The notes beneath the pieces are model-generated. The model made no database searches and was not told the origin of the DNA. It saw only the letters and a list, made by a program, of their open reading frames with translations. A stretch of 37,935 nucleotides of DNA, taken from a virus. Taxonomy: Duplodnaviria; Heunggongvirae; Uroviricota; Caudoviricetes. This document shows, one piece after another, positions 6,203 to 17,763 of the stretch; position 1 is the first letter of the stretch; the number at the start of each line of letters is the position of its first letter. The DNA lies in IMG/VR virus record IMGVR_UViG_2909298281_000006, positions 1-37,935 of that record; one strand, written 5' to 3'. The translations under genes and the position numbers were made by a program.

Positions 6203-8350
6203 ATGACGGCAGAGTACATCAGGGACTGGCAACAACCGCGCCACGCAGTGGGGCGTGAAGGAACGGGGATCCCCGCTCCTGAATCCGCGCTTTCCTCCTG
6301 GCTGGATGCCTACCGGGCAGAGAACGAGCGCCGCCAGGAAATGGCTGATGCGGCGTTCTCCGCCACGCCGCTGGGCAACCTGATTAATAAAAGCCTGGAC
6401 GCACAGGAAAAACAGGACAAAACCATCACACTGGCAGGAGACGCCAGAAAGCAGGCACGCGGCGCGGTGGATGAAGCCATGGCCTCGCTGCGCCTGCTGC
6501 CGTCCTATCTGCGCGATCCGCTTATTCGCCACCTCTCCTTCCTGCGCAAAAAACAGGAATCTGACCGCCAGAAAGGTAAAAAGAACCAGCAGGCTGAACG
6601 CTACGCGCGCGGGACCCTGCGCAAAATATTCGAACGTCTGGACCGCACCGACCACCGCTGGCTGACACCGGGTTATCGCGCCCTTGCCGGACGCGAACGC
6701 CTGGATGATTTGCTTTACCTCCCGCAGCTCAACAAGCACCAGATACAGACGCTGGCCACCATGACGGCGGCGATGTTCAGCAGCACCTTCGAAAAACTCT
6801 GCGATGGCTTTGGCGCAACCGATGGCGAGCTGACCATGGATGTAACCCTGAAGGCGTATCAGATGCTGGCCCGCATGGCGTTACACCTGCACGCCATGCC
6901 TCCACATTATGACGCACTGACAACAGACAAAGACCGGAGGAACGAACCGGACACGGAGCTGCTGCCGGGCGCAATCCTTCGCCTGACCTGTGCGGAATGG
7001 TGGAAACGCAAACTGTGGCTGTTACGTTGCGAGTGGAGAGAAGAACAACTCCGCGCCGCCTGTCTGGTTTCCAGAAAAACATCGCCCTATCTGAGCCAGG
7101 ACGCGTTAAGCGAGTTTCGCGCACAGCGCGAGAAGACACGCGATTTCCTGAAAAGTTTCATGCTGGAAAACGAAGACGGGTTCACGATTGATCTCGAGAC
7201 AGTGTATTACGCGGGAGTAAGTAACCCGGTTCACCGTAAGGCAGAAATGATGGCCACCATGAAGGGACTGGAACTTCTGGCCGAAGCCCGTGGCGACAGA
7301 GCGGTGTTTCTGACTGTCACCTGCCCGTCAAAATACCACGCCACAACAGAGAACGGTCATCCGAATCCCAAATGGAACGGGGCCACCATGCGCGACTCCA
7401 GCGATTACCTGGTTAACACGTTTTTTGCGGCTGTCCGCAAAAAACTGAACCGCGACGGTCTGCGCTGGTATGGCATCCGCACGGTGGAGCCTCACCATGA
7501 CGGCACCGTGCACTGGCATATGATGGTCTTTGCTCATCCGGAAGAAATCGACACCATTGTGTCCCACACCCGCGATATTGCCATTCAGGAAGACCGCCAC
7601 GAGCTGGGCGATGACATAACTCCGCGCTTTAAGGCGGAGTACGTCGACGGCTCAAAAGGCACACCAACCAGCTACATCGCCACCTACATCGGAAAGAACC
7701 TGGACAGCCACGCCGTGGATGGCATCGACCCGAAAACGGGCAAGCCACGCGTTGACCACGAAACCGGAAAATCAATGGCCGAGAGCGTGGAGCGCGCCAT
7801 CGGCTGGGCGCGCCTTCACCGGGTCCGCCAGTTCCAGTTCTTTGGCATCCCCTCCCGTCAGGTGTGGCGTGAACTGCGCCGCCTTGCCAGCCAGATGGCA
7901 CGCAACCCGGAAGGCCCGCAACGACTGAAGGACGACGCAATGGATGCGGTACTCGCTGCCGCTGATGCCGGGTGTTTTGCCTCCTACATTGAAAAACAGG
8001 GTGGCGTACTTGTTCCACGCAAAGACTACCTGATTCGCACCGCCTACGACCTCGCCGATGAGCTGAACGATTACGGCGAACAGAGCGTACAGATTTACGG
8101 GATCTGGTCACCACTCATCGGGGAATCCTCCCGTGTGTGCACGCATCCGGATAACTGGAAGCTGGTAAGACGTAAACCGGAAGCGGAAGACAGCGCCCGC
8201 GAAAATGGTTTTGACCTTCAGGGCGGCCCTGCCGCCCTTGGACTCGTGGCAATAACTGTCCCCGTGTACAGGAAACGGACAACAACGGGACAGAACAGCC
8301 GGAGGAACGGCCAGCACCGTGGCCGCAGCTTCCTGAAGGCGTTGACGTGA
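6203..8350 (+). CDS. A: Replication initiator A (rolling-circle initiator/endonuclease)
   Basis: 715 aa, matching the size and position of P2 gpA; contains a Tyr-containing YIATYIGKNLD motif consistent with rolling-circle initiator active sites. Confidence 0.85.
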   Translation: MTAEYIRDWQQPRHAVGREGTGIPAPESALSSWLDAYRAENERRQEMADAAFSATPLGNLINKSLDAQEKQDKTITLAGDARKQARGAVDEAMASLRLLPSYLRDPLIRHLSFLRKKQESDRQKGKKNQQAERYARGTLRKIFERLDRTDHRWLTPGYRALAGRERLDDLLYLPQLNKHQIQTLATMTAAMFSSTFEKLCDGFGATDGELTMDVTLKAYQMLARMALHLHAMPPHYDALTTDKDRRNEPDTELLPGAILRLTCAEWWKRKLWLLRCEWREEQLRAACLVSRKTSPYLSQDALSEFRAQREKTRDFLKSFMLENEDGFTIDLETVYYAGVSNPVHRKAEMMATMKGLELLAEARGDRAVFLTVTCPSKYHATTENGHPNPKWNGATMRDSSDYLVNTFFAAVRKKLNRDGLRWYGIRTVEPHHDGTVHWHMMVFAHPEEIDTIVSHTRDIAIQEDRHELGDDITPRFKAEYVDGSKGTPTSYIATYIGKNLDSHAVDGIDPKTGKPRVDHETGKSMAESVERAIGWARLHRVRQFQFFGIPSRQVWRELRRLASQMARNPEGPQRLKDDAMDAVLAAADAGCFASYIEKQGGVLVPRKDYLIRTAYDLADELNDYGEQSVQIYGIWSPLIGESSRVCTHPDNWKLVRRKPEAEDSARENGFDLQGGPAALGLVAITVPVYRKRTTTGQNSRRNGQHRGRSFLKALT

Positions 8351-8949
8351 ATGAATGGATGCGCTCACTGAAACGGCACGAACGCCGGGCACTGATGCGT
8401 TCGCTGCGTGACAAACAGGCAAAAAACAGCAGTGATGAAATGCAGAACTGGACACAGAGCCGCAAACAGCCACAGCCTTTGCCTGATAACCACGAGTTAC
8501 TCGCTAAAGAATGGCGGGAGTCTGCTGAATCTCTCGGCCTGCATATCGGTGAACAGCAGATGCAGCACCTGTTACGGGGCGGCAGTCTGTACGTTGGCGG
8601 CAGCATCATTACACCGCAGGGATTTGAAATTGTACGCAAACCGGATACCCGCCCGGACAGCCGAATCACGCAGCTCTGGCAACGCCTGAGTCGTAATCAC
8701 GGCGTAAGCAGCACGGAGATCCGCCATAACCCGGTCGCCAGCTATCTGGAACAACTAGAGGCATCAGACCCTGAAGCCGCCGCACGCCTGGCATCCACAC
8801 TTCAGCAAGACCAGAACACCATGAAAACACCAGTTACCGTACTTTCTGACATGCTGCGCGCCATCCGCGACGCAGAGCACGCACAGAGAATCAATGAAAC
8901 CACTAAACATGCTCGCAAAAAAATCAGTTTATTGCATCGAACACGATAG
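8347..8949 (+). CDS. Hypothetical protein (200 aa), translationally coupled to A
   Basis: Start overlaps the A stop (ATGA); position of the small post-A ORF in P2. Confidence 0.55.
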   Translation: MNEWMRSLKRHERRALMRSLRDKQAKNSSDEMQNWTQSRKQPQPLPDNHELLAKEWRESAESLGLHIGEQQMQHLLRGGSLYVGGSIITPQGFEIVRKPDTRPDSRITQLWQRLSRNHGVSSTEIRHNPVASYLEQLEASDPEAAARLASTLQQDQNTMKTPVTVLSDMLRAIRDAEHAQRINETTKHARKKISLLHRTR

Positions 8950-8994: not shown

Positions 8995-9804
8995 TCAACC
9001 TATCTTCTTATGAAGTAAAATTAATTTCTGTATTAATTTGGAATGAAACATAGATATATCAGAAATTCTTATTTCATTAGGCGAGTCTATATGATTGGAA
9101 ACTTCTTCCTCCAAGGAGTCACAAATACTTTCTAGATTTTCAATATCTGCATTTAATTCTGGAAAACTATTAAACAAATATAATGAATCCCGTAACTCTC
9201 CTAGTTTTGGTAAAAGAGTATTACTGAATACACTAAGAAACTCCTCTTCTGATAATGCCATGGAGTTTTTAAAACTTTGCACAACATCGAATGCCAACCC
9301 ATTAATTTTAGGCATAATTACTTCTCTTACCCAATATCCTTCATTAATAGCTTCTTTACGTTCTTTTCTATGTTGAACATAAGGAATAACAAAGGATGAA
9401 ACTAAGGCAAATAAAGAGATGCCAATAGAAATCCACTCTGGACCATTTTCCGGAACCTTTACAATATTATATATATCATGGGAATTTGGAACATCTTTGA
9501 AATAATTAGCAAATAAATCTTTTTTGTTATCCCTTGCCAGAGATAACTTATGAAAGGTGTCGTTTGCCTTTTCACAAAACATCAAGCCATCATTCGGGTT
9601 TCCGGATAACAAAAACGGTGATGATATACCACTAAGTCCTGAATCGGAAATATAAAAAGGCGTGTTTGGATAAAGTGACTCATTACATTCAATGTTTTCT
9701 TTATTGGAAAAATCTGTCACAGAGCAAGCTGCGGGGAATATAAAAAAAATGACAGACAGCGCTGTCATTTTGATTTGAAAAATATTTTTAAAAGAAGGGA
9801 ACAT
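8995..9804 (-). CDS. Cargo gene 3: bitopic membrane protein (N-terminal signal/anchor plus one central TM), candidate effector
   Basis: 269 aa; hydrophobic N-terminus MTALSVIFFIFPAACS, central TM WISIGISLFALVSSFVIPYV, acidic C-terminal domain; AGGAGAGG upstream; start overlaps the upstream gene by 17 nt; AT-rich. Confidence 0.7.
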   Translation of the reverse strand: MFPSFKNIFQIKMTALSVIFFIFPAACSVTDFSNKENIECNESLYPNTPFYISDSGLSGISSPFLLSGNPNDGLMFCEKANDTFHKLSLARDNKKDLFANYFKDVPNSHDIYNIVKVPENGPEWISIGISLFALVSSFVIPYVQHRKERKEAINEGYWVREVIMPKINGLAFDVVQSFKNSMALSEEEFLSVFSNTLLPKLGELRDSLYLFNSFPELNADIENLESICDSLEEEVSNHIDSPNEIRISDISMFHSKLIQKLILLHKKIG

Positions 9805-10132
9805 TTTTATGTAAGCCTCTCCTTACAGCTCTATCTAATTCAGAAAGCATACCTTCTTTATATTCACGACCATCAAGTACAGTGCGACTATAAAATTCGC
9901 TAGGCGAAGAAAATTTCGGCAAAACCGTTTCAAGCATACCTAGAAAGTATGAGCTTGATACAACAATTCCCTTGGGGATCAATAGATATAATCTATCATT
10001 ACTGGTTGTGCAAAATTTCCCTATATTAAAGTAATCATAGGCCTGGCGCCCATTAGAACGTCCAGCAAAAAGTTTCTTGTTACTATCTTTTACTAACTTA
10101 TTGAAATCTATGGTGATGTCAGCCATTTTCAT
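9788..10132 (-). CDS. Cargo gene 2: small STAS-like / anti-sigma-factor-antagonist-like protein (tentative)
   Basis: 114 aa; ITIDFNKLVKDS and GIVVSSSYFLGML resemble the STAS/SpoIIAA DSSG region (from memory); 10-nt gap to the upstream GHKL gene stop. Confidence 0.6.
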   Translation of the reverse strand: MKMADITIDFNKLVKDSNKKLFAGRSNGRQAYDYFNIGKFCTTSNDRLYLLIPKGIVVSSSYFLGMLETVLPKFSSPSEFYSRTVLDGREYKEGMLSELDRAVRRGLHKNVPFF

Positions 10133-10142
10133 GTACCTGTCC

Positions 10143-11522
10143 TCAAGTTCGCTGGGTGGCGTTTTCTGGTAGAGGAAAACGAATATTGATCATAACTCCA
10201 GGAAATCGAGCATCCTTCATACGCTTAAGATAGTTGCGATCCGGTTCAGATTCAAGCCCTACATCATTAAAAGGGTAAGTAAAAATGTCACTTTCCTCGT
10301 CATTAACCAACCTTTGCTTTAATTTATATGATCCATCAAAGTTAATATGAGTACTACCAGATATTAAAGTCATTTTTATCCCACCTTTAATATCTCTTCC
10401 CATTTTTTTAAGATTATCATGCATATCTTGAAATAACTTCAATAATTCAATTGTTCCGGTGCCAGAACTGTCAGTTTCTTTCTCGTTTTTACAACTCACC
10501 CGCCCTTGCAAGGCCGCTACTGTTGTTAATCCTTCCTTAAACATACCCTTTTTCTTAATATGCTTATTTATGTATGGATTAACTTGTTGACTTAATGAAA
10601 AATGATCCTCAGGTAAATTATCAAAAGTTTCGCTGATAGTTTTCCCAAAATTGAAAACAGCCAACTCACATATGGGGTTTCGTACGTTATTATTAACAAA
10701 ACCTCTCAAATACCAGCGTGGGCGTTGCTCTAACCCACAATGCCGCTCCGCATTATCAAGGAGTTCCCCCATGCAGGAAGTTAAATGCTTTTCTGCCTCA
10801 TGTACAAGTTTTAAATTATGATCATTTAAGCATTCGTTTATGTATGCGGTAAATTTTTCAGCAGTGACATTTTTTCTGTCATGGGCAAAGGCAGAAGCAT
10901 TCTCCTTTCCGATACTATCAGCAGAGAAGATTCGTTTCTTCGGATTCGCTTTTTTCGATGCTTCAGTAGAGTCCAGAACTTTACCTGGTGCAGCATTACT
11001 AATCTCTTTTACAAGCCCGACATCCCTGATAATTTCAAGATACTGTTCATCTTTAGGGTAGATACCATTAATCTGAATCATCGTATCTTTGAAATTTATA
11101 TTACTTTGCCTTGCTGCTGTAAGAGCAACACCTAATAGACACTCAAGACCAAGACAGTGTTTTTTGTTTTTCTTGTAATCAAAAATATATGATTTCCATT
11201 TACCTCTTGCAATTAATTTTGTGGCTGCACTAATAAATAGCAGAGATTTCTCTGGATTGTCATATAAGTCAAAATATTTAGGTATTAATATCTTCTCTGC
11301 GTCACGACGAAGAATTGATGAGTCATACTCTTTTATAATCGATATATTTTCAATGAACGTAGCGACTTGGTTTTGGACAGGAGTTGTTTCATCGGAAAAA
11401 CGAAGACTACCATTTTTCTCTTGCGCAGGCTTTTTTTTCTTAGCTCTCTCAACGCTACGAAGAAATCGCAACCATCCACGTAAAAAGGTTCTTTTAGAAT
11501 CTTCTTTATTGATTTTTTTCAT
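10143..11522 (-). CDS. Cargo gene 1: GHKL-superfamily ATPase / putative protein kinase
   Basis: Track ORF runs to TTG 11618; ATG at 11522 (MKKINKED) preferred. N-box-like ELLDNAERH and G2-like SSGTGTIELL; the N-terminal ~230 aa have no motif I recognise. Confidence 0.65.
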   Translation of the reverse strand: MKKINKEDSKRTFLRGWLRFLRSVERAKKKKPAQEKNGSLRFSDETTPVQNQVATFIENISIIKEYDSSILRRDAEKILIPKYFDLYDNPEKSLLFISAATKLIARGKWKSYIFDYKKNKKHCLGLECLLGVALTAARQSNINFKDTMIQINGIYPKDEQYLEIIRDVGLVKEISNAAPGKVLDSTEASKKANPKKRIFSADSIGKENASAFAHDRKNVTAEKFTAYINECLNDHNLKLVHEAEKHLTSCMGELLDNAERHCGLEQRPRWYLRGFVNNNVRNPICELAVFNFGKTISETFDNLPEDHFSLSQQVNPYINKHIKKKGMFKEGLTTVAALQGRVSCKNEKETDSSGTGTIELLKLFQDMHDNLKKMGRDIKGGIKMTLISGSTHINFDGSYKLKQRLVNDEESDIFTYPFNDVGLESEPDRNYLKRMKDARFPGVMINIRFPLPENATQRT

Positions 11523-11601
11523 TTCCAAATGTTCCTGCAAAGTTAACGTAGCCCACAAGGCGCTAAGTATACTTTCTGCTATATTTTTTTCACTATACAA
11601 A

Positions 11602-11628
11602 TGCACAATAGTGCACAAATTTGCACAA
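11602..11628. repeat. Three direct TGCACAA repeats with exact 10-bp phasing upstream of the cargo operon (fourth copy at 11694-11700)
   Basis: Read directly: TGCACAA at 11602-11608, 11612-11618, 11622-11628. Confidence 0.6.
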
Positions 11629-11639
11629 TTTTTTTGAAC

Positions 11640-11720
11640 GACTTTTTGCCCTTCTGGCCCGCGTGGCGGCTGGATCCGTCAAGGATCCGTGCGTGCACAA
11701 AAAAACGCGCTTTTTCTGCG
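11640..11720. other. Candidate cos region
   Basis: P2-family cos lies between the old/tin locus and Q; GCGTGGCGG (11661-11669) resembles the start of the 186/P2 cohesive end as I recall it; adjacent direct repeat GGATCCGT x2. Confidence 0.3.
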
Positions 11721-12001
11721 CGCAGGTGACGGGGGAACAGCCCGCGTTTCAGGGGGTAAATAGCATTCCCTGAACGATGTCGCAGAGATAGAACAGAATG
11801 GCTGTATTTCTCACGCTGAGCGTGAAAAAGACGTGAGGGCTTTTGATTTGATGGGGTGAAAGGTAAGGCCGTCAAAATCGCACTGAGACGGCGAGAACAT
11901 GCAGTCAACGCGGTGGGATTGCGTAAGAGTCTGACTGTCGATGATGGCAATCAGCAGGAAAGCGTCGTGAAATTATCTGACTGATACAGGAGCTGGAGAG
12001 T

Positions 12002-12026
12002 CGGGGCATAAATTTTTTATGCCCCG
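12002..12026. terminator. Perfect 11-bp-stem hairpin downstream of Q
   Basis: CGGGGCATAAA-TTT-TTTATGCCCCG, 27 nt beyond the Q stop. Confidence 0.45.
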
Positions 12027-12052
12027 GCGAAGCAGCAGACAAGCGAAGCGCG

Positions 12053-13099
12053 TCAGGATGTGGGCTGGGTGTCTAACAGTGCGTAAGGGTTAAAGCGGAT
12101 CACCTCTTCGCCAAGCCAGTCATTGATGTGCTTCATGGCCTCCATGACGGGCATCAGCTCGTTAATTGCGTAAACCCGCGCGGCTTTCTCCACATCACCA
12201 AACGCACTTTTTTCGCCCGGCATCGCCCCCATCAGTTGCGGCGGAACGCGGTGCGCAGCCAGCACATCATCACGGGATGCCGCCTTAACATTCATGAACT
12301 CATCCTTTGCGGTGATCTGCTGGAACGGCAAAATTTGCACCCCTTCTTTGCCCCCGTTGGGCGCATGAATGAGCACGTTTTTAAATGCACCACCACCACG
12401 CGCACCCTGTAACGTTTCTTTCAGGGAGTCCATGCTTTCGCGGTTTACCTGCGCTGCACCGATGTAGATGATGCACCCGGCGTGGGATCCGTTGTCGTAG
12501 TACAGTTTTCTGAACATGTCCGCCGAATGAGAAAGGCTGGCCGAGAGTAATGCGCCAAGATATTCCGGCATGCCGTAGATTTCCTGGTTAATATCCGGAT
12601 TCATCAGGTGGCACACTTTGCCAGGGCGAAGCTGGAACGCGTCCTTGCCATCCTGCACATACCACCATGATTCAAGATCGCTTCCGCGTCGCATGTATTT
12701 CGCCAGGGCGTGCCGTAATTTAAGCGGTTCGCCGAGCATATTGCTCCGAAGCTCAAGGAATGCGTTACCGAACACAAACCAGTCCAGCGCCAGCGCCGAG
12801 AAATCCTGCCGGGAAAGCAGCGGGTGCGGGATGTAGCACCCGAGCAATACATTACGCTTAAAGTAAAGCGCAGACTGATGCCAGGACGTTTGCCGGGCGG
12901 CTCTTGCCAGACCGTACCAGTCCACCGGGGTTTCATACCACCGCCCGTTATCAGCACAGTACATATTGTCCAGCAGGTCATGCCCGGTCAGGCGATAAGG
13001 ACCATCAAATGTGAATGCACTGAGCGATGATTCTTTCCTGAGCGCATCAGCGAGATCAATGCGTGAACTCATGCGCACTTTTTTATTTTTTCTGCTCAT
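12053..13099 (-). CDS. Q: Portal protein
   Basis: 348 aa; size, position and orientation match P2 gpQ; start overlaps the P stop. Confidence 0.9.
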   Translation of the reverse strand: MSRKNKKVRMSSRIDLADALRKESSLSAFTFDGPYRLTGHDLLDNMYCADNGRWYETPVDWYGLARAARQTSWHQSALYFKRNVLLGCYIPHPLLSRQDFSALALDWFVFGNAFLELRSNMLGEPLKLRHALAKYMRRGSDLESWWYVQDGKDAFQLRPGKVCHLMNPDINQEIYGMPEYLGALLSASLSHSADMFRKLYYDNGSHAGCIIYIGAAQVNRESMDSLKETLQGARGGGAFKNVLIHAPNGGKEGVQILPFQQITAKDEFMNVKAASRDDVLAAHRVPPQLMGAMPGEKSAFGDVEKAARVYAINELMPVMEAMKHINDWLGEEVIRFNPYALLDTQPTS

Positions 13100-14850
13100 C
13101 AGAACTCCATAACCGTAAAACGCTCGTTTTCCCCTTCGCCGCCAATCGGTTCGTTAATGACAGCAAGCATGGTTGCCCACGCAAGGTCGCCGTGGCTGAT
13201 CCCCCTCGCACGGTCCGTTTCGTAAGTGATAAAGCCGCCCGGTGTTTTCACCTTACGCACGGCGTTAAAGGCTGCGACCAGCTCGCGTTCGGCGCGATCA
13301 TATTCCCACCGCCCGGCACGCATTATTTGCAGCATTTTCAGTACCAGCGACCGTTTTGATGACAGCGTGAAGGTGTACGGAATAGCAGCAGGGAAAAACC
13401 GTTTCACTATCTGATAAACAGCCTCCCCGTTCCCGCCCGTCACATCAATGCCGATGTGTTCCACGTTGTAGCGACACGTGAACTCTTCAATGACTCTGGC
13501 CTGTTCTTCAAACTCCAGCCCCTGAACGCGTCGCGTCTCCACCGTTCGAAAACGGCCTCCAGGAACAGCCGGAGGAACCACCACGGACACAGCGCCGCTG
13601 TCGCCGTTTCCACTGCTGCCGTTTGCGTCATACCCAATCCATACCGGACGATTCCCCATCGGGCGGGGAGCAAAAGGTTTCCAGTCTTTCCAGTCGTCGT
13701 ATCCGTCAACACCGCAGCCAATCAGGATATTCAGGTTAAATGCCGATTCCCCTTCGCGGACAAACTCACACATATAGAGATTGCGGAACTCGTCTTCGGT
13801 GTTTTCATCACGAATTTCGTCAATATCGGTGTGTTTCCAGCCGTGATTAACCACATCTTCCAGCGTGACAATTTGCCGCCACGTCCGGTCAGGGCAGATA
13901 AGCCCGTTATGCAGCGTTTTCCAGTCCACAGAAAAACGCTGGCGTTTATGCGTGGCCTTTTTCTCGTTCCAGCGGTCGCCATTCCAGTAGGCGTATGCCT
14001 CGTGCGTTTCGGTGGATGGCGTGGAGAAGTAGGTGCGCCGCAGTCCGCTGAGGGTTGCCATAGCGCCAGCCACCTTGCGCAGTTCAGCAAAGCGACTGAC
14101 CCAGAAAAATTCATCAAAATAAAAATTGCCCGTGTAGGACTGTGCCGTCGCAGCAGAAGTACCAAGAAAATGCAGCTCTGCGCCGTTGGAGAGGATGATT
14201 TTATCGCCCCCTTTCAGCTCCACATCAACTTCAGCCGCAGCCTTCTGAATAATGCTTTTAAACTGGAACGCCTGACGACGCGACGCAGACAAAAAAATCT
14301 GGTTACGCTGGTAAGGTTGTGCCACATCGTCACGCAGCGCCATCAGCAGTGCTTCCTGTGCAAAATACCAGGTCGCCCCAATCTGTCGGGATTTCAGGAT
14401 CATCCTGTTACGTATCCCGGCTTCCCTGCAAAGGGTCAGGGAGTCAAACCAGCCCCGCTGATGCCACTCCAGCCTGCTGATGATTTTTTCCCGCAGTGCG
14501 GCAATCTGTTCCGGCGTGAAATGATTTTTGAGTTTTTTCGCCCGGCCTTTCTTTCCTGCGGCCATCACATCCGGCTGGCCATCATGCAGCTTTTTAAGCT
14601 GCCGGGTCAGCAGGTCTATTTCCTTGAAGTCACCACCTGTTTTATTCTGTTTTTCAGTAAGCTGGATGAGGCGCGCATCGATGGACTGCGTGACACGCTG
14701 CACGGGTGGCGTTTCATCCCACTGGTCGCGTTTTTTCCACGCATAAATCGTGTTCGGGTTTATTCCCATCAGACGTGATATTTCTGCGGGCGGATAACCC
14801 TGCCAGTAAAGTTGCCGCGCACGCTGGCGCACAAAAGCGTCCTGAATCAT
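13099..14850 (-). CDS. P: Terminase large (ATPase) subunit
   Basis: 583 aa; size and position match P2 gpP. Confidence 0.9.
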   Translation of the reverse strand: MIQDAFVRQRARQLYWQGYPPAEISRLMGINPNTIYAWKKRDQWDETPPVQRVTQSIDARLIQLTEKQNKTGGDFKEIDLLTRQLKKLHDGQPDVMAAGKKGRAKKLKNHFTPEQIAALREKIISRLEWHQRGWFDSLTLCREAGIRNRMILKSRQIGATWYFAQEALLMALRDDVAQPYQRNQIFLSASRRQAFQFKSIIQKAAAEVDVELKGGDKIILSNGAELHFLGTSAATAQSYTGNFYFDEFFWVSRFAELRKVAGAMATLSGLRRTYFSTPSTETHEAYAYWNGDRWNEKKATHKRQRFSVDWKTLHNGLICPDRTWRQIVTLEDVVNHGWKHTDIDEIRDENTEDEFRNLYMCEFVREGESAFNLNILIGCGVDGYDDWKDWKPFAPRPMGNRPVWIGYDANGSSGNGDSGAVSVVVPPAVPGGRFRTVETRRVQGLEFEEQARVIEEFTCRYNVEHIGIDVTGGNGEAVYQIVKRFFPAAIPYTFTLSSKRSLVLKMLQIMRAGRWEYDRAERELVAAFNAVRKVKTPGGFITYETDRARGISHGDLAWATMLAVINEPIGGEGENERFTVMEF

Positions 14851-16962: not shown

Positions 16963-17763
16963 ATGATTACTCCTGCACAGCAACACTGGCAGAACGTGAT
17001 GGCACAGCGCGCAGGCCGGGCGAATGAAGGCGTGGACCACGCCGCGCGTACCGCGCATGAAGAGGTGCTGTATCGTCTGCGTCTGGCACAGGCCCGGCTT
17101 AAGGGCGTACAGGCCAGAAGCGCGAAAGCCGCCATCAAAAAAGAGTTGTTGCCGGACTTTTCCGGCTGGATTGAGGGAACGCTGGAGGCTGACGGCGGGC
17201 AGCAGGATGAAGTGATTGCCACGCTGATGGTGTGGGCGATTGACTGCGGCGATCTTCCGCTGGCGTTGCGTATTGGTGCGTATGTGGTCCGTCATAACCT
17301 CATTATGCCGGATAACTTTGGCCGTACTGCTGCCACAGTGCTGACCGAAGAAATCTGCAACCCGGTACTGACGCAGGCCGGGACGGATGCCGACGCGGAT
17401 TTGTCCGCCTTTATCGAACCACTGGATACCCTCCGGGAGATTGTCACCGACCAGGACATGCCGGACGAAGTGCGCGCCAAATTATGCAAGGCGTGCGCCT
17501 TTGCCCGTCGTGGCCTGAGTGATGCGGACAGCATGGCCCTGTCACTGAAGCTGCTGCGCGAAGCAATGCACCTGAACCCGAATGCAGGTGTGAAACGCGA
17601 GATTGCAACCCTTTCCCGCGCCCTGAAAAAAGCCGATTCCGCAGCCGCACCAGAAGATGCCAGCACACCGCAGGCGCAGGACGAAAGCAGCAAAAGTAAA
17701 AAGACAACGCGGAAGCCTGCAACACGAAAAACCACCGCGACGCAGAAGGCGAAGCGCGGTTAA
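16963..17763 (+). CDS. M: Terminase small / endonuclease subunit
   Basis: 266 aa; position after N and similarity to P2 gpM. Confidence 0.85.
   Translation: MITPAQQHWQNVMAQRAGRANEGVDHAARTAHEEVLYRLRLAQARLKGVQARSAKAAIKKELLPDFSGWIEGTLEADGGQQDEVIATLMVWAIDCGDLPLALRIGAYVVRHNLIMPDNFGRTAATVLTEEICNPVLTQAGTDADADLSAFIEPLDTLREIVTDQDMPDEVRAKLCKACAFARRGLSDADSMALSLKLLREAMHLNPNAGVKREIATLSRALKKADSAAAPEDASTPQAQDESSKSKKTTRKPATRKTTATQKAKRG

What the first reader, a model, noticed from the sequence alone, without database searches (positions are those of the whole stretch)
11591..11700. Helically phased TGCACAA repeat array upstream of the cargo operon
TGCACAA occurs at 11602, 11612 and 11622, exactly 10 bp apart, so all copies sit on one face of the helix, with a fourth copy at 11694. 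The array lies about 80-110 bp upstream of the preferred ATG (11522) of the GHKL gene. This looks like a binding-site array for a regulator or nucleoid protein rather than coding sequence. The track ORF starting at TTG 11618 would have to translate through it, which argues for the 11522 start.
Basis: seen in the sequence. Interest (0 to 1): 0.45.

Follow-up and report, generated by a model that had tools for sequence, protein, structure and literature searches.

The report
Repeat boxes of phage packaging site
The phased TGCACAA repeats are real, but they most likely belong to the prophage's DNA-packaging (cos) site, whose outer edge marks where the swappable cargo genes begin, and are not a control site for the cargo operon.

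Summary
TGCACAA sits at 11602, 11612, 11622 and 11694, with spacing 10, 10 and 72 bp. A triple 7-mer at period 10 arose in 1 of 2000 shuffles.

The cargo-regulator reading is not supported. The window is a P88-like (P2-family) E. coli prophage. About 1140 E. coli genomes share DNA that starts at the first repeat, and only 23-24 share the cargo. Across 38 different cargo junctions, the neighbouring gene more often reads towards the array than away from it.

A 19-nt sequence at 11725-11743 matches the P2 cohesive end at 13 of 19 positions. Measured from it, the repeats lie at -123, -113, -103 and -31. P2 and its satellite P4 carry TGCAT boxes at -123/-124, -111, -101 and -29. In 109 unrelated P2/186-type cos flanks these positions hold TGCA in 53-94% of cases, against 2% at control positions. 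Satellites that share only cos with P88-like phages keep the array, and their homology also begins at the first repeat.

Best reading: these are the distal and proximal recognition boxes of the cos site, analogous to lambda cosB. Binding by terminase is inferred. The ATG at 11522 is supported as the gene start.

The parts
11602..11628 (+). Distal cos boxes 1-3: TGCACAA x3 at 10-bp spacing, at -123, -113 and -103 from the proposed cosN. This is the outer edge of the conserved cos module.
   Evidence: Searches give the sequence. One search shows homology in about 1140 E. coli genomes starting at 11600-11603. Searches show the same positions in P88-type phages of 8 genera and in satellites. Searches show TGCAT boxes at equivalent positions in P2, P4 and 186-type cos.
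11629..11636 (+). T7 tract directly after box 3. It is invariant with the array and perfectly complementary to the A-run after box 4.
   Evidence: inverted repeat I5.
11637..11693 (.). cos spacer. Its length is fixed (box 3 to box 4 is 72 bp) but its sequence varies between lineages. It contains TGCCC at 11647 and a GGATCCGT direct repeat at 11672 and 11683.
   Evidence: No IHF consensus site here.
11694..11700 (+). Proximal cos box 4 (TGCACAA), at -31 from cosN and followed by an A-run. Equivalent to the TGCAT at -29 of P2 and P4, which lies within the homology shared by P2 and P4 next to cosN (my estimate of the published 55-bp core).
   Evidence: 94% of 109 unrelated P2/186-type flanks have TGCA here.
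11705..11723 (.). GC-rich hairpin between box 4 and cosN. It occupies the same place as CCGCCCCGTGAAGCGGGCG in P2 and P4. The terminator scan flagged it on the - strand.
11725..11743 (+). Proposed cosN (cohesive-end site) GGTGACGGGGGAACAGCCC. Assigned by homology; the ends have not been mapped.
   Evidence: 13 of 19 identical to the annotated P2 cohesive end. Identical or differing at one position in P88-type cos across 8 genera. The variant GGCGAGGCGGGGGAGCAAG bridges to P2.
11744..11762 (+). Right flank of cosN, still shared with satellites (...GCGTTTCAGGGGGTAAAT). This is the right edge of the cos module.
11566..11593 (-). Candidate sigma-70 promoter of the cargo operon: -35 GTGAAA at 11593-11588 and -10 TATACT at 11571-11566. 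It lies in cargo-specific DNA just outside the array. Prediction only.
   Evidence: 9 of 12 match. This stretch is the best conserved part of the leader in the 80%-identical cargo homologue.
10143..11522 (-). First cargo gene (459 aa from ATG 11522), function unknown. Two further cargo genes lie at 9788-10132 and 8995-9804.
   Evidence: PGAP start. Searches found no family or structure hit.
13099..14850 (-). Terminase large subunit gpP with an N-terminal helix-turn-helix (aa 6-63, nt 14662-14835). Candidate reader of the boxes.
   Evidence: PF06056, HTH_23, Terminase_6N/6C; the first 70 aa are 80-84% identical among phages with TGCACAA boxes, against 66-78% for the rest of the protein.
16963..17763 (+). 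Terminase small subunit gpM. The other candidate reader of the boxes.
   Evidence: PF05944; 40.6% identity to P2 gpM..

Best explanation
The three phased TGCACAA copies are the distal repeat block of the prophage's cos (DNA-packaging) site, and the fourth copy is its proximal box. The module runs from 11602 to about 11762. Its order is three boxes one helical turn apart, a T7 tract, a spacer of fixed length but free sequence, a fourth box exactly 72 bp after the third, a GC hairpin, and then the 19-nt cohesive-end site at 11725-11743.

I infer that the phage terminase reads the boxes. Reading boxes on one face of the DNA would assemble the enzyme and place its nuclease on cosN about 100-120 bp away. 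Lambda gpNu1 uses the R3/R2/R1 sites of cosB in this way.

Selection for packaging stops at the first box. The exchangeable cargo (defence hotspot) therefore begins at that base in every relative. The cargo operon's own promoter lies in the 79 bp between the array and ATG 11522 and travels with the cargo. The AT-rich array at about -44 to -70 of that promoter may help it incidentally, but that is not why the array is conserved.

Shown: the repeat anatomy, its conservation independent of cargo, its fixed register to cosN, and its presence in satellites. Inferred: the cosN assignment (by homology), terminase as the binding protein, and a requirement for packaging.
For: 1. Backbone, not cargo. 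1143 E. coli records match the 11450-12060 region. Nearly all sampled rows begin at query 151-154, which is window 11600-11603. Only 24 extend into the cargo.

2. IMG/VR context. Of 163 loci where the array has the phage-type cos right flank, 116 are unique and fall into 38 unrelated left-flank clusters. The junction is always at the first box. The neighbouring large ORF reads towards the array in 23 clusters, away in 12, and none is found in 3. In P88 and phiT5282H the cargo is convergent with the array.

3. Register to cosN. Boxes lie at -123, -113, -103 and -31 in the window. The same holds in P88-type cos of Kluyvera, Erwinia, Pantoea, Mixta, Enterobacter, Citrobacter and Symbiopectobacterium, despite divergent spacers; Apirhabdus has the same architecture but its array sits 1-2 bp closer to cosN. 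P2 has TGCAT at -123, -111, -101 and -29. P4 has it at -124, -111, -101 and -29, although the two share no other sequence at -100 to -125.

4. Generality. 213 unique P2/186-type cos flanks form 109 non-homologous spacer clusters. TGCA lies within 2 bp of -123, -112, -102 and -30 in 53%, 83%, 83% and 94% of cluster representatives. Control positions average 2%, with a maximum of 8%. In 24 P4-like satellite flanks the figures are 96%, 100%, 100% and 100%.

5. Satellites with P88-type cos. L189 and L204 share the block with the phage from the first TGCACAA through about 19 nt past cosN, and nothing beyond it. L193 keeps the three boxes and a downstream TGCACAA, but its spacer and the region where cosN is expected differ. 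L204 and L193 carry an integrase, a Toprim primase and their own P2-family capsid gene, with no portal detected; only an integrase fragment was detected on L189.

6. Footprint-like conservation between E. coli and Enterobacter phages. The array plus T7, box 4 and cosN are invariant. The spacer and hairpin are divergent.

7. Candidate readers are encoded here: gpM (PF05944) and gpP with an N-terminal HTH. That HTH is the best conserved part of the terminase among phages sharing the boxes.

8. Literature. The P2 and P4 hotspots abut cos, and cos is the only region the two elements share (PMC9122126).
Against: No binding or packaging experiment exists for these boxes.

The papers I could read cite only a 55-bp cos core for P2-family phages (PMC3931495, PMC5247547 and PMC5694545, all citing Ziermann and Calendar 1990). 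By my alignment of P2 and P4 that core would contain the proximal box but not the distal triple. The distal boxes might therefore be dispensable or only stimulatory.

cosN is assigned by homology only. The linear GenBank record of P88_4B11 instead starts at the equivalent of window 11647, at TGCCC 18 bp after box 3. If that reflects real ends, the cut site differs from my assignment, although the array would then sit even closer to it.

The first distal box is the least conserved: 53-64% in P2/186-type phages, and TGCACGA or CGCACAA variants occur here.

gpM and gpP are no more diverged from their P2 counterparts than the other head proteins.

TGCA is a palindrome, so in some lineages boxes 1 and 2 also form a hairpin stem.
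Confidence: 0.72

Rival explanations
1. One reading: the array is an operator or activator array through which a phage or host regulator (Ogr, C, Cox or a nucleoid protein) controls the leftward cargo operon.
For: The array lies 80-106 bp upstream of ATG 11522, and about -44 to -70 from a predicted promoter. Phased direct repeats are typical of winged-helix regulators and of P2 Cox boxes (general knowledge). In P2 the mapped old-tin transcript starts lie 26-28 bp outside the first TGCAT box, so that promoter's -35 overlaps a box.
Against: The array is invariant next to 38 different cargo junctions, most of them convergent with it. It is present in satellites. Its register is to cosN, not to any promoter. 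No second site exists anywhere in the window, including the C/cox and late-promoter regions. It does not contain the TGT-N12-ACA dyad that I recall as the Ogr site of P2 late promoters, judged by inspection.
Confidence: 0.05
2. Secondary, non-exclusive role: the AT-rich, phased array acts as an UP-element-like or bent upstream element that boosts whichever leftward cargo promoter lands beside it.
For: The predicted promoter lies directly outside the array, in a stretch conserved between two 80%-identical cargo versions. The P2 old promoter abuts and overlaps its own boxes.
Against: Only 12 of 38 junctions have a leftward neighbour, at gaps of about 80-430 bp. This cannot explain the conservation or the register to cosN. 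No transcript data are available.
Confidence: 0.15
3. The array plus T7 is an intrinsic terminator or insulator that stops rightward early or cargo transcription from running into cos.
For: The terminator scan lists GTGCACAAATTTGCAC followed by AATTTTTTT on the + strand. In P4 and 186-type flanks, boxes 1 and 2 can pair as a stem followed by T residues.
Against: The hairpin is weak: -6.1 kcal/mol, z = -0.8 against shuffles. Rightward cargos bring their own strong terminators immediately before the array (left-flank sequences). A terminator would conserve pairing, not the letters TGCA at fixed distances from cosN. P2 itself has no T-run there.
Confidence: 0.05
4. The boxes belong to cos but are read by a host DNA-bending protein rather than by terminase, or they act only through DNA flexibility, since TG/CA steps once per turn favour wrapping.
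For: The strict 10-bp and 72-bp phasing with a free spacer sequence suggests a bent or wrapped structure. The TGCA core is shared by lineages whose terminases differ.
Against: No IHF consensus lies in 11560-11760. The box extension differs by lineage within the same hosts: TGCAT, TGCACAA, and (T/C)GCAG in phiCTX. That fits a phage-encoded reader better.
Confidence: 0.1
5. The array is a recombination site at which cargo cassettes are exchanged, which is why variation starts there.
For: The break in homology is exact to the base in hundreds of genomes. Rousset et al. speculate that cos ends promote exchange (PMC9122126).
Against: No recombinase or matching second site bounds the other side of the cargo. 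The boundary is equally explained by selection ending at the edge of cos. The boxes are kept in P4, where the hotspot lies on the other side of cosN.
Confidence: 0.04

Closest known systems
Bacteriophage lambda cosB (R3, R2 and R1 sites for gpNu1, with the IHF site I1)
   Same: Several copies of a short motif lie on one side of the nicking site. One copy is close and the others are roughly 100 bp away. They are separated by DNA thought to be bent, and together they define packaging specificity.
   Different: The sequences are unrelated. No IHF site was found here. As I recall, P2-family phages package monomeric circles. P2-family TerL carries its own N-terminal HTH. Binding has not been shown.
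The 55-bp cos core of P2 and P4 (Ziermann and Calendar 1990, as cited in PMC3931495, PMC5247547, PMC5694545)
   Same: The 19-nt cosN is homologous (13 of 19). The genomic position is the same, between hotspot and portal. The proximal TGCA box and the GC hairpin just before cosN are also shared.
   Different: By my alignment of P2 and P4, the triple array lies outside the published 55-bp core. The box here is TGCACAA with strict 10-bp spacing, whereas P2 and P4 have TGCAT at 12-13 and 10 bp.
[quoted passage not shown]
   Same: A P2-family phage in which repeats flanking cos were noticed. By eye, (T/C)GCAG boxes lie at about -109, -99, -83, -37 and -28 from cosR.
   Different: The box sequence and host differ. 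I could not read the paper that defines R3-R6, so the equivalence is my own reading of the sequence.
P2 old-tin promoter region
   Same: A leftward cargo promoter sits directly against the outermost cos box. In P2 the mapped starts are at -151 and -149 from cosN.
   Different: In P2 the -35 overlaps box 1. Here the predicted -35 lies 9 bp outside it, and no transcript start has been mapped.
Direct-repeat operators (OmpR/PhoB-type response-regulator sites, P2 Cox boxes)
   Same: 7-bp direct repeats with AT-rich 3-bp spacers at one helical turn.
   Different: The array is not tied to a promoter or regulon and occurs at only one locus in the genome. Its position is fixed relative to cosN.

Membership tests
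P2-family cos (packaging) site | GC-rich 19-nt cohesive-end sequence homologous to that of P2 or 186 | tested here: met
   GGTGACGGGGGAACAGCCC at 11725-11743 is 13 of 19 identical to P2 GGCGAGGCGGGGAAAGCAC. It is identical or differs at one position across 8 genera.
P2-family cos (packaging) site | Located between the gene A / hotspot side and the portal gene Q | tested here: met
   Gene A lies at 6203-8949, cargo at 8995-11522, the array and cosN at 11602-11743, and the portal at 12053-13099.
P2-family cos (packaging) site | Shared between helper phages and their satellites when little else is | tested here: met
   Satellites L189 and L204 share exactly the block from box 1 to about 19 nt past cosN. 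L193 keeps the boxes, but its spacer and the region where cosN is expected differ. P4 shares its boxes with P2.
P2-family cos (packaging) site | TGCA-type boxes at about -123, -112, -102 and -30 from cosN (a feature defined here) | tested here: met
   Window: -123, -113, -103, -31. In 109 unrelated P2/186-type flanks the frequencies are 53%, 83%, 83% and 94%, against a 2% background.
P2-family cos (packaging) site | Cleaved by terminase to give cohesive ends, and required in cis for packaging | not testable with these tools
   No virion-end data are available. The only linear record (P88_4B11) starts at the equivalent of 11647, which disagrees with the homology-based cosN.
Lambda cosB-type terminase recognition repeats | Repeated motif on one side of cosN within about 130 bp | tested here: met
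Lambda cosB-type terminase recognition repeats | Bound by the small terminase subunit | not testable with these tools
   gpM and an HTH-bearing gpP are encoded in the window. The conservation pattern is compatible but not decisive.
Lambda cosB-type terminase recognition repeats | IHF site between the proximal and distal repeats | tested here: not met
   No WATCAANNNNTTR match with up to 1 mismatch lies between 11190 and 14946.
Operator or activator array of the cargo operon | Co-inherited with the regulated operon and fixed relative to its promoter | tested here: not met
   The same array lies next to 38 different junctions in both gene orientations, at gaps up to about 480 bp.
Operator or activator array of the cargo operon | Further sites of the same motif at other regulated promoters | tested here: not met
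   No other paired site in 37.9 kb, even with 2 mismatches allowed.
Intrinsic (rho-independent) terminator | Stable GC-rich stem followed by a T-run, more stable than chance | tested here: not met
   -6.1 kcal/mol, z = -0.8, with 35 of 200 shuffles folding at least as well.

The most novel reading that the evidence does not exclude
The distal TGCA-box triple lies outside the published 55-bp cos core. It may be a previously unrecognised and required specificity element of all P2-family cos sites. On this reading it is read by the N-terminal HTH of the large terminase, or by gpM. Its lineage-specific spelling (TGCAT, TGCACAA, (T/C)GCAG) would then set which satellites a given helper can package. 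Its outer edge would fix the recombination boundary of the defence-gene hotspot.
Probability: 0.3. Interest if true: 0.6.

Novelty: new member of a known kind. Interest (0 to 1): 0.38.

Why it matters
The result turns an apparent cargo regulator into part of the packaging signal. That matters for annotation: the gene start is ATG 11522, and the hotspot boundary is at 11602.

It also gives a base-precise landmark for delimiting defence hotspots in P2-like prophages and their satellites. The cargo begins at the outermost cos box.

The conserved box architecture suggests that the functional cos site is larger than the 55-bp core usually quoted. The boxes lie at about -123, -112, -102 and -30, with a strict 72-bp gap, and the pattern holds across P2, 186, P4 and P88-type elements.

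This is directly testable. It is relevant to helper-satellite specificity and to the design of P2/P4-based cosmids and transducing particles.

Tried and rejected
1. I first took cosN to be at about 11647-11680. The reasons were GCGTGGCGG, the conserved TGCCC 18 bp after box 3, and the start of the P88_4B11 record. I dropped this after divergent variants showed GGCGAGGCGGGGGAGCAAG and GGTGACGGGGGAACAGCCC further right, aligning with the P2 cosN and restoring the same box distances as in P2 and P4. By my comparison of the sequences printed, the 11647 region resembles the spacer of 186-type cos; this was not formally aligned.

2. I first read the 11705-11723 hairpin as the P-Q operon terminator. 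It is more likely the counterpart of the hairpin next to cosN in P2.

3. The apparent extension of homology to 11573 in E2348/69-like prophages is only T-rich terminator similarity. The extension to 11497 in strain TOE17 is an IS1-truncated remnant of the same cargo.

4. DnaA-box (TTWTNCACA) and Ogr-site (TGT-N12-ACA) resemblances, both consensus sequences recalled from memory, were checked by eye and are imperfect. As I recall, P2 replication starts inside gene A. Neither was pursued.

5. gpM and gpP covariation with box type: all head proteins are about equally diverged from those of P2, so this does not discriminate.

6. Rfam found nothing relevant. The only hit was a sub-threshold gyrA RNA match at 11994-12047.

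7. Literature: the primary cos paper (PubMed 2265763) and the 2016 P2 review are not held. One search was wasted on 'gpM' matching a weather satellite.

8. The genome-wide pattern scan also returns unrelated TGCACAA triplets, such as a Bryobacteraceae multi-copy repeat and iteron-like arrays in other viral contigs.

Full report
**Observation.** TGCACAA is present on the + strand at 11602, 11612, 11622 and 11694. The repeat finder gives spacings of 10, 10 and 72 bp. The heptamer is not over-represented in the window: 8 copies against 9.7 expected. The arrangement is what stands out. Three identical 7-mers at a 10-bp period occur only here. They appeared in 1 of 2000 dinucleotide-preserving shuffles of the window, and in 0 of 5000 shuffles of the low-GC segment. 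No other pair of such sites exists in the window, even with two mismatches allowed.

**Context.** The window is a P2-family prophage of the P88 / Xuanwuvirus type.
- Replication gene A lies at 6203-8949.
- A low-GC block (27-42% GC) of three leftward genes lies at 8995-11522.
- A 530-bp intergenic region follows.
- Portal Q (12053-13099), large terminase P (13099-14850), scaffold, capsid and small terminase M (16963-17763) come next.

RefSeq annotation of an identical prophage starts the first cargo gene at the ATG equivalent to 11522. None of the three cargo proteins hits Pfam, NCBIfam, PADLOC or any PDB sequence.

**The array belongs to the backbone, not to the cargo.** Megablast of 11450-12060 against 5426 complete E. 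coli genomes finds 1143 records. Only 24 extend into the cargo. In a spread sample, nearly every other record begins at query position 151-154, which is window 11600-11603, the first base of the first repeat.

In IMG/VR, 163 array-bearing loci reduce to 116 unique sequences with 38 unrelated left flanks. The break is always at the first repeat. The neighbouring large ORF reads towards the array in 23 clusters, away in 12, and is absent in 3. Rightward cargos often end in their own terminator immediately before the array. Phage P88 and Enterobacter phage phiT5282H are examples with convergent cargo. Two apparent exceptions were explained. One is an IS1-truncated remnant of the same cargo, and the other is T-rich terminator similarity. 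A site that regulates this cargo operon would not behave this way.

**The array is in fixed register with the cohesive-end site.** Divergent relatives keep the three repeats, and one or two further copies downstream, while the GC-rich DNA between them changes. Some variants carry GGCGAGGCGGGGGAGCAAG, which is close to the P2 cohesive end GGCGAGGCGGGGAAAGCAC. At the same place the window has GGTGACGGGGGAACAGCCC (11725-11743), 13 of 19 identical to P2.

Box positions measured from the start of this sequence:

| Element | Box positions |
|---|---|
| Window | -123, -113, -103, -31 |
| P2 | -123, -111, -101, -29 |
| P4 (satellite) | -124, -111, -101, -29 |

P2 and P4 share no other sequence at -100 to -125. 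In P2 that DNA is the old promoter region; in P4 it is the 3' flank of psu. The gap between the last distal box and the proximal box is 72 bp in all of them.

P88-type cos sites in species-representative genomes of Kluyvera, Erwinia, Pantoea, Mixta, Enterobacter, Apirhabdus, Citrobacter and Symbiopectobacterium show the same architecture with variable spacers.

**Generality.** Exact-match scans of IMG/VR for the P2 and 186 cohesive ends gave 213 unique cos flanks in 109 clusters with non-homologous spacers.

| Set | n | near -123 | near -112 | near -102 | near -30 |
|---|---|---|---|---|---|
| Spacer-cluster representatives | 109 | 53% | 83% | 83% | 94% |
| Phage flanks | 140 | 64% | 82% | 88% | 96% |
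| P4-like satellite flanks | 24 | 96% | 100% | 100% | 100% |

Values are the fraction with TGCA within 2 bp of the stated position. At 119 control positions the mean was 2% and the maximum 8%. Pseudomonas phage phiCTX has (T/C)GCAG boxes at roughly -109, -99, -83, -37 and -28, and its GenBank record annotates repeats around cos.

**Satellites.** Three IMG/VR loci with the TGCACAA array lack a portal. L204 and L193 encode an integrase, a Toprim primase and their own P2-family capsid protein, and L193 also has a GPO scaffold. Only an integrase fragment was detected on L189. In L189 and L204, homology to the phage starts at the first repeat and ends about 19 nt past the proposed cosN. L193 keeps the boxes, but its spacer and the region where cosN is expected differ. 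[quoted passage not shown] What a satellite keeps in common with its helper is what the helper's packaging machinery needs.

**Pattern of constraint.** Between the E. coli prophages and the Enterobacter phage, three elements are invariant: the array plus T7, the fourth box with its A-run, and GCGCA plus cosN. The spacer and the hairpin before cosN are divergent. This looks like discrete recognition elements held at fixed distances.

**Mechanism proposed.** The boxes are the recognition part of cos and cosN is the cutting part, as with cosB and cosN in lambda. Three contacts one turn apart, and a fourth seven turns further on the same face, would assemble terminase on bent or wrapped DNA and place its nuclease on cosN.

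Two candidate readers are encoded in the window. One is gpM (PF05944). The other is the N-terminal helix-turn-helix of gpP (PF06056 and HTH_23, residues 6-63). Among phages that share TGCACAA boxes, that HTH segment is 80-84% identical to the window's. The rest of gpP is 66-78% identical and gpM 62-69%. Its presumed recognition helix differs from that of P2 and 186. This is compatible with the proposal but not decisive, because all head proteins are about 37-48% identical to those of P2. Binding and a requirement for packaging are inferences.

**The cargo promoter.** A sigma-70-like site lies in cargo-specific DNA just outside the array, with -35 GTGAAA at 11593-11588 and -10 TATACT at 11571-11566. 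This is the best conserved stretch of the leader in an 80%-identical cargo homologue, whose leader otherwise differs by indels. In P2 the mapped old-tin transcript starts lie at -151 and -149 from cosN, so that promoter's -35 overlaps the first TGCAT box. Leftward cargo promoters therefore nestle against cos. The AT-rich array could act as an incidental upstream element, but this cannot explain its conservation.

**Rivals.**
- Intrinsic terminator: the hairpin is weak (-6.1 kcal/mol, z = -0.8), and the letters TGCA are conserved rather than base pairing.
- IHF site: none is found in the region.
- Known RNA family: no relevant match.
- Recombination site: not needed to explain the sharp boundary. 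It is also hard to reconcile with P4, where the hotspot lies on the other side of cosN.

**Caveats.**
- The papers I could read quote a 55-bp cos core for P2-family phages (PMC3931495, PMC5247547, PMC5694545). By my alignment that core would include the proximal box but not the distal triple.
- The primary paper is not held. I cannot say whether the distal repeats were mapped or noticed there.
- The linear record of P88_4B11 starts at the equivalent of 11647, not at my cosN. If that reflects real ends, the cut site moves but the array remains inside the cos module.

**Verdict.** The repeats are real and non-random. They are not a cargo-operon operator. They are most likely the box elements of the P2-family packaging site, in the P88-lineage spelling.

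Noticed in passing
window about 8235 (gene A, 6203-8949): The replication endonuclease gene is split into two ORFs (6203-8350 and 8347-8949). The cause is a 1-nt deletion (a C) relative to the otherwise 99.97% identical prophage in NZ_CP066032. It is either a frameshifted, possibly defective, prophage or a sequencing error.
   Followed up: yes
L204 (12.7 kb), L193 (13.6 kb), L189: L204 and L193 are small integrative elements with integrase(s), a Toprim primase and their own P2-family major capsid gene, and no portal detected. L193 also has a GPO scaffold. L189 was only checked by tblastn, which found an integrase fragment. L189 and L204 carry the P88-type cos including the TGCACAA boxes; L193 keeps the boxes in a divergent cos. 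They look like capsid-encoding satellites of P88-like phages.
   Followed up: partly
window 8995-11522 (- strand): The three cargo proteins (269, 114 and 459 aa) have no Pfam, NCBIfam, PADLOC or PDB-sequence match, so the 'GHKL' label is unverified. The cassette is in 21 of the 5426 complete E. coli genomes at 99% identity or more, plus two genomes with an 80%-identical version (23 in all).
   Followed up: partly
window 14662-14835 (gpP residues 6-63): The large terminase has an N-terminal helix-turn-helix (PF06056, HTH_23). It is more conserved than the rest of the terminase among phages sharing the TGCACAA boxes: 80-84% against 66-78% for the rest of gpP and 62-69% for gpM.
   Followed up: partly
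window 11629-11636 and 11698-11705: Box 3 is followed by T7 and box 4 by A7. Together they form a perfect 8-nt inverted repeat across the 61-bp spacer. T-run and A-run partners recur in divergent cos variants.
   Followed up: no
window 11647-11693: The cos spacer holds TGCCC exactly 18 bp after box 3 in most variants. This is where the linear P88_4B11 record starts. It also holds a direct repeat GGATCCGT at 11672 and 11683. The role of these features is unknown.
   Followed up: partly
window 11760-12050: About 300 bp lie between cosN and the portal stop that P2 lacks. The P88 record annotates two small hypothetical ORFs there. A strong hairpin, GGGGCATAAATTTTTTATGCCCC, near 11996-12018 gave a sub-threshold Rfam gyrA-RNA match.
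   Followed up: no
L454-L533 (genome-contig scan): TGCACAA-N3 triplets are also a multi-copy repeat in Bryobacteraceae and Bryobacterales MAGs, with several copies per contig. They also occur as iteron-like arrays in unrelated viral contigs (L101, L106, L133/L148, L191). None of these has a cos context.
   Followed up: no
L453 (E. coli TOE17): An IS1 insertion or deletion has removed everything between cox and the first 25 bp of the cargo gene in an otherwise related prophage. The cargo leader and cos remain intact.
   Followed up: partly
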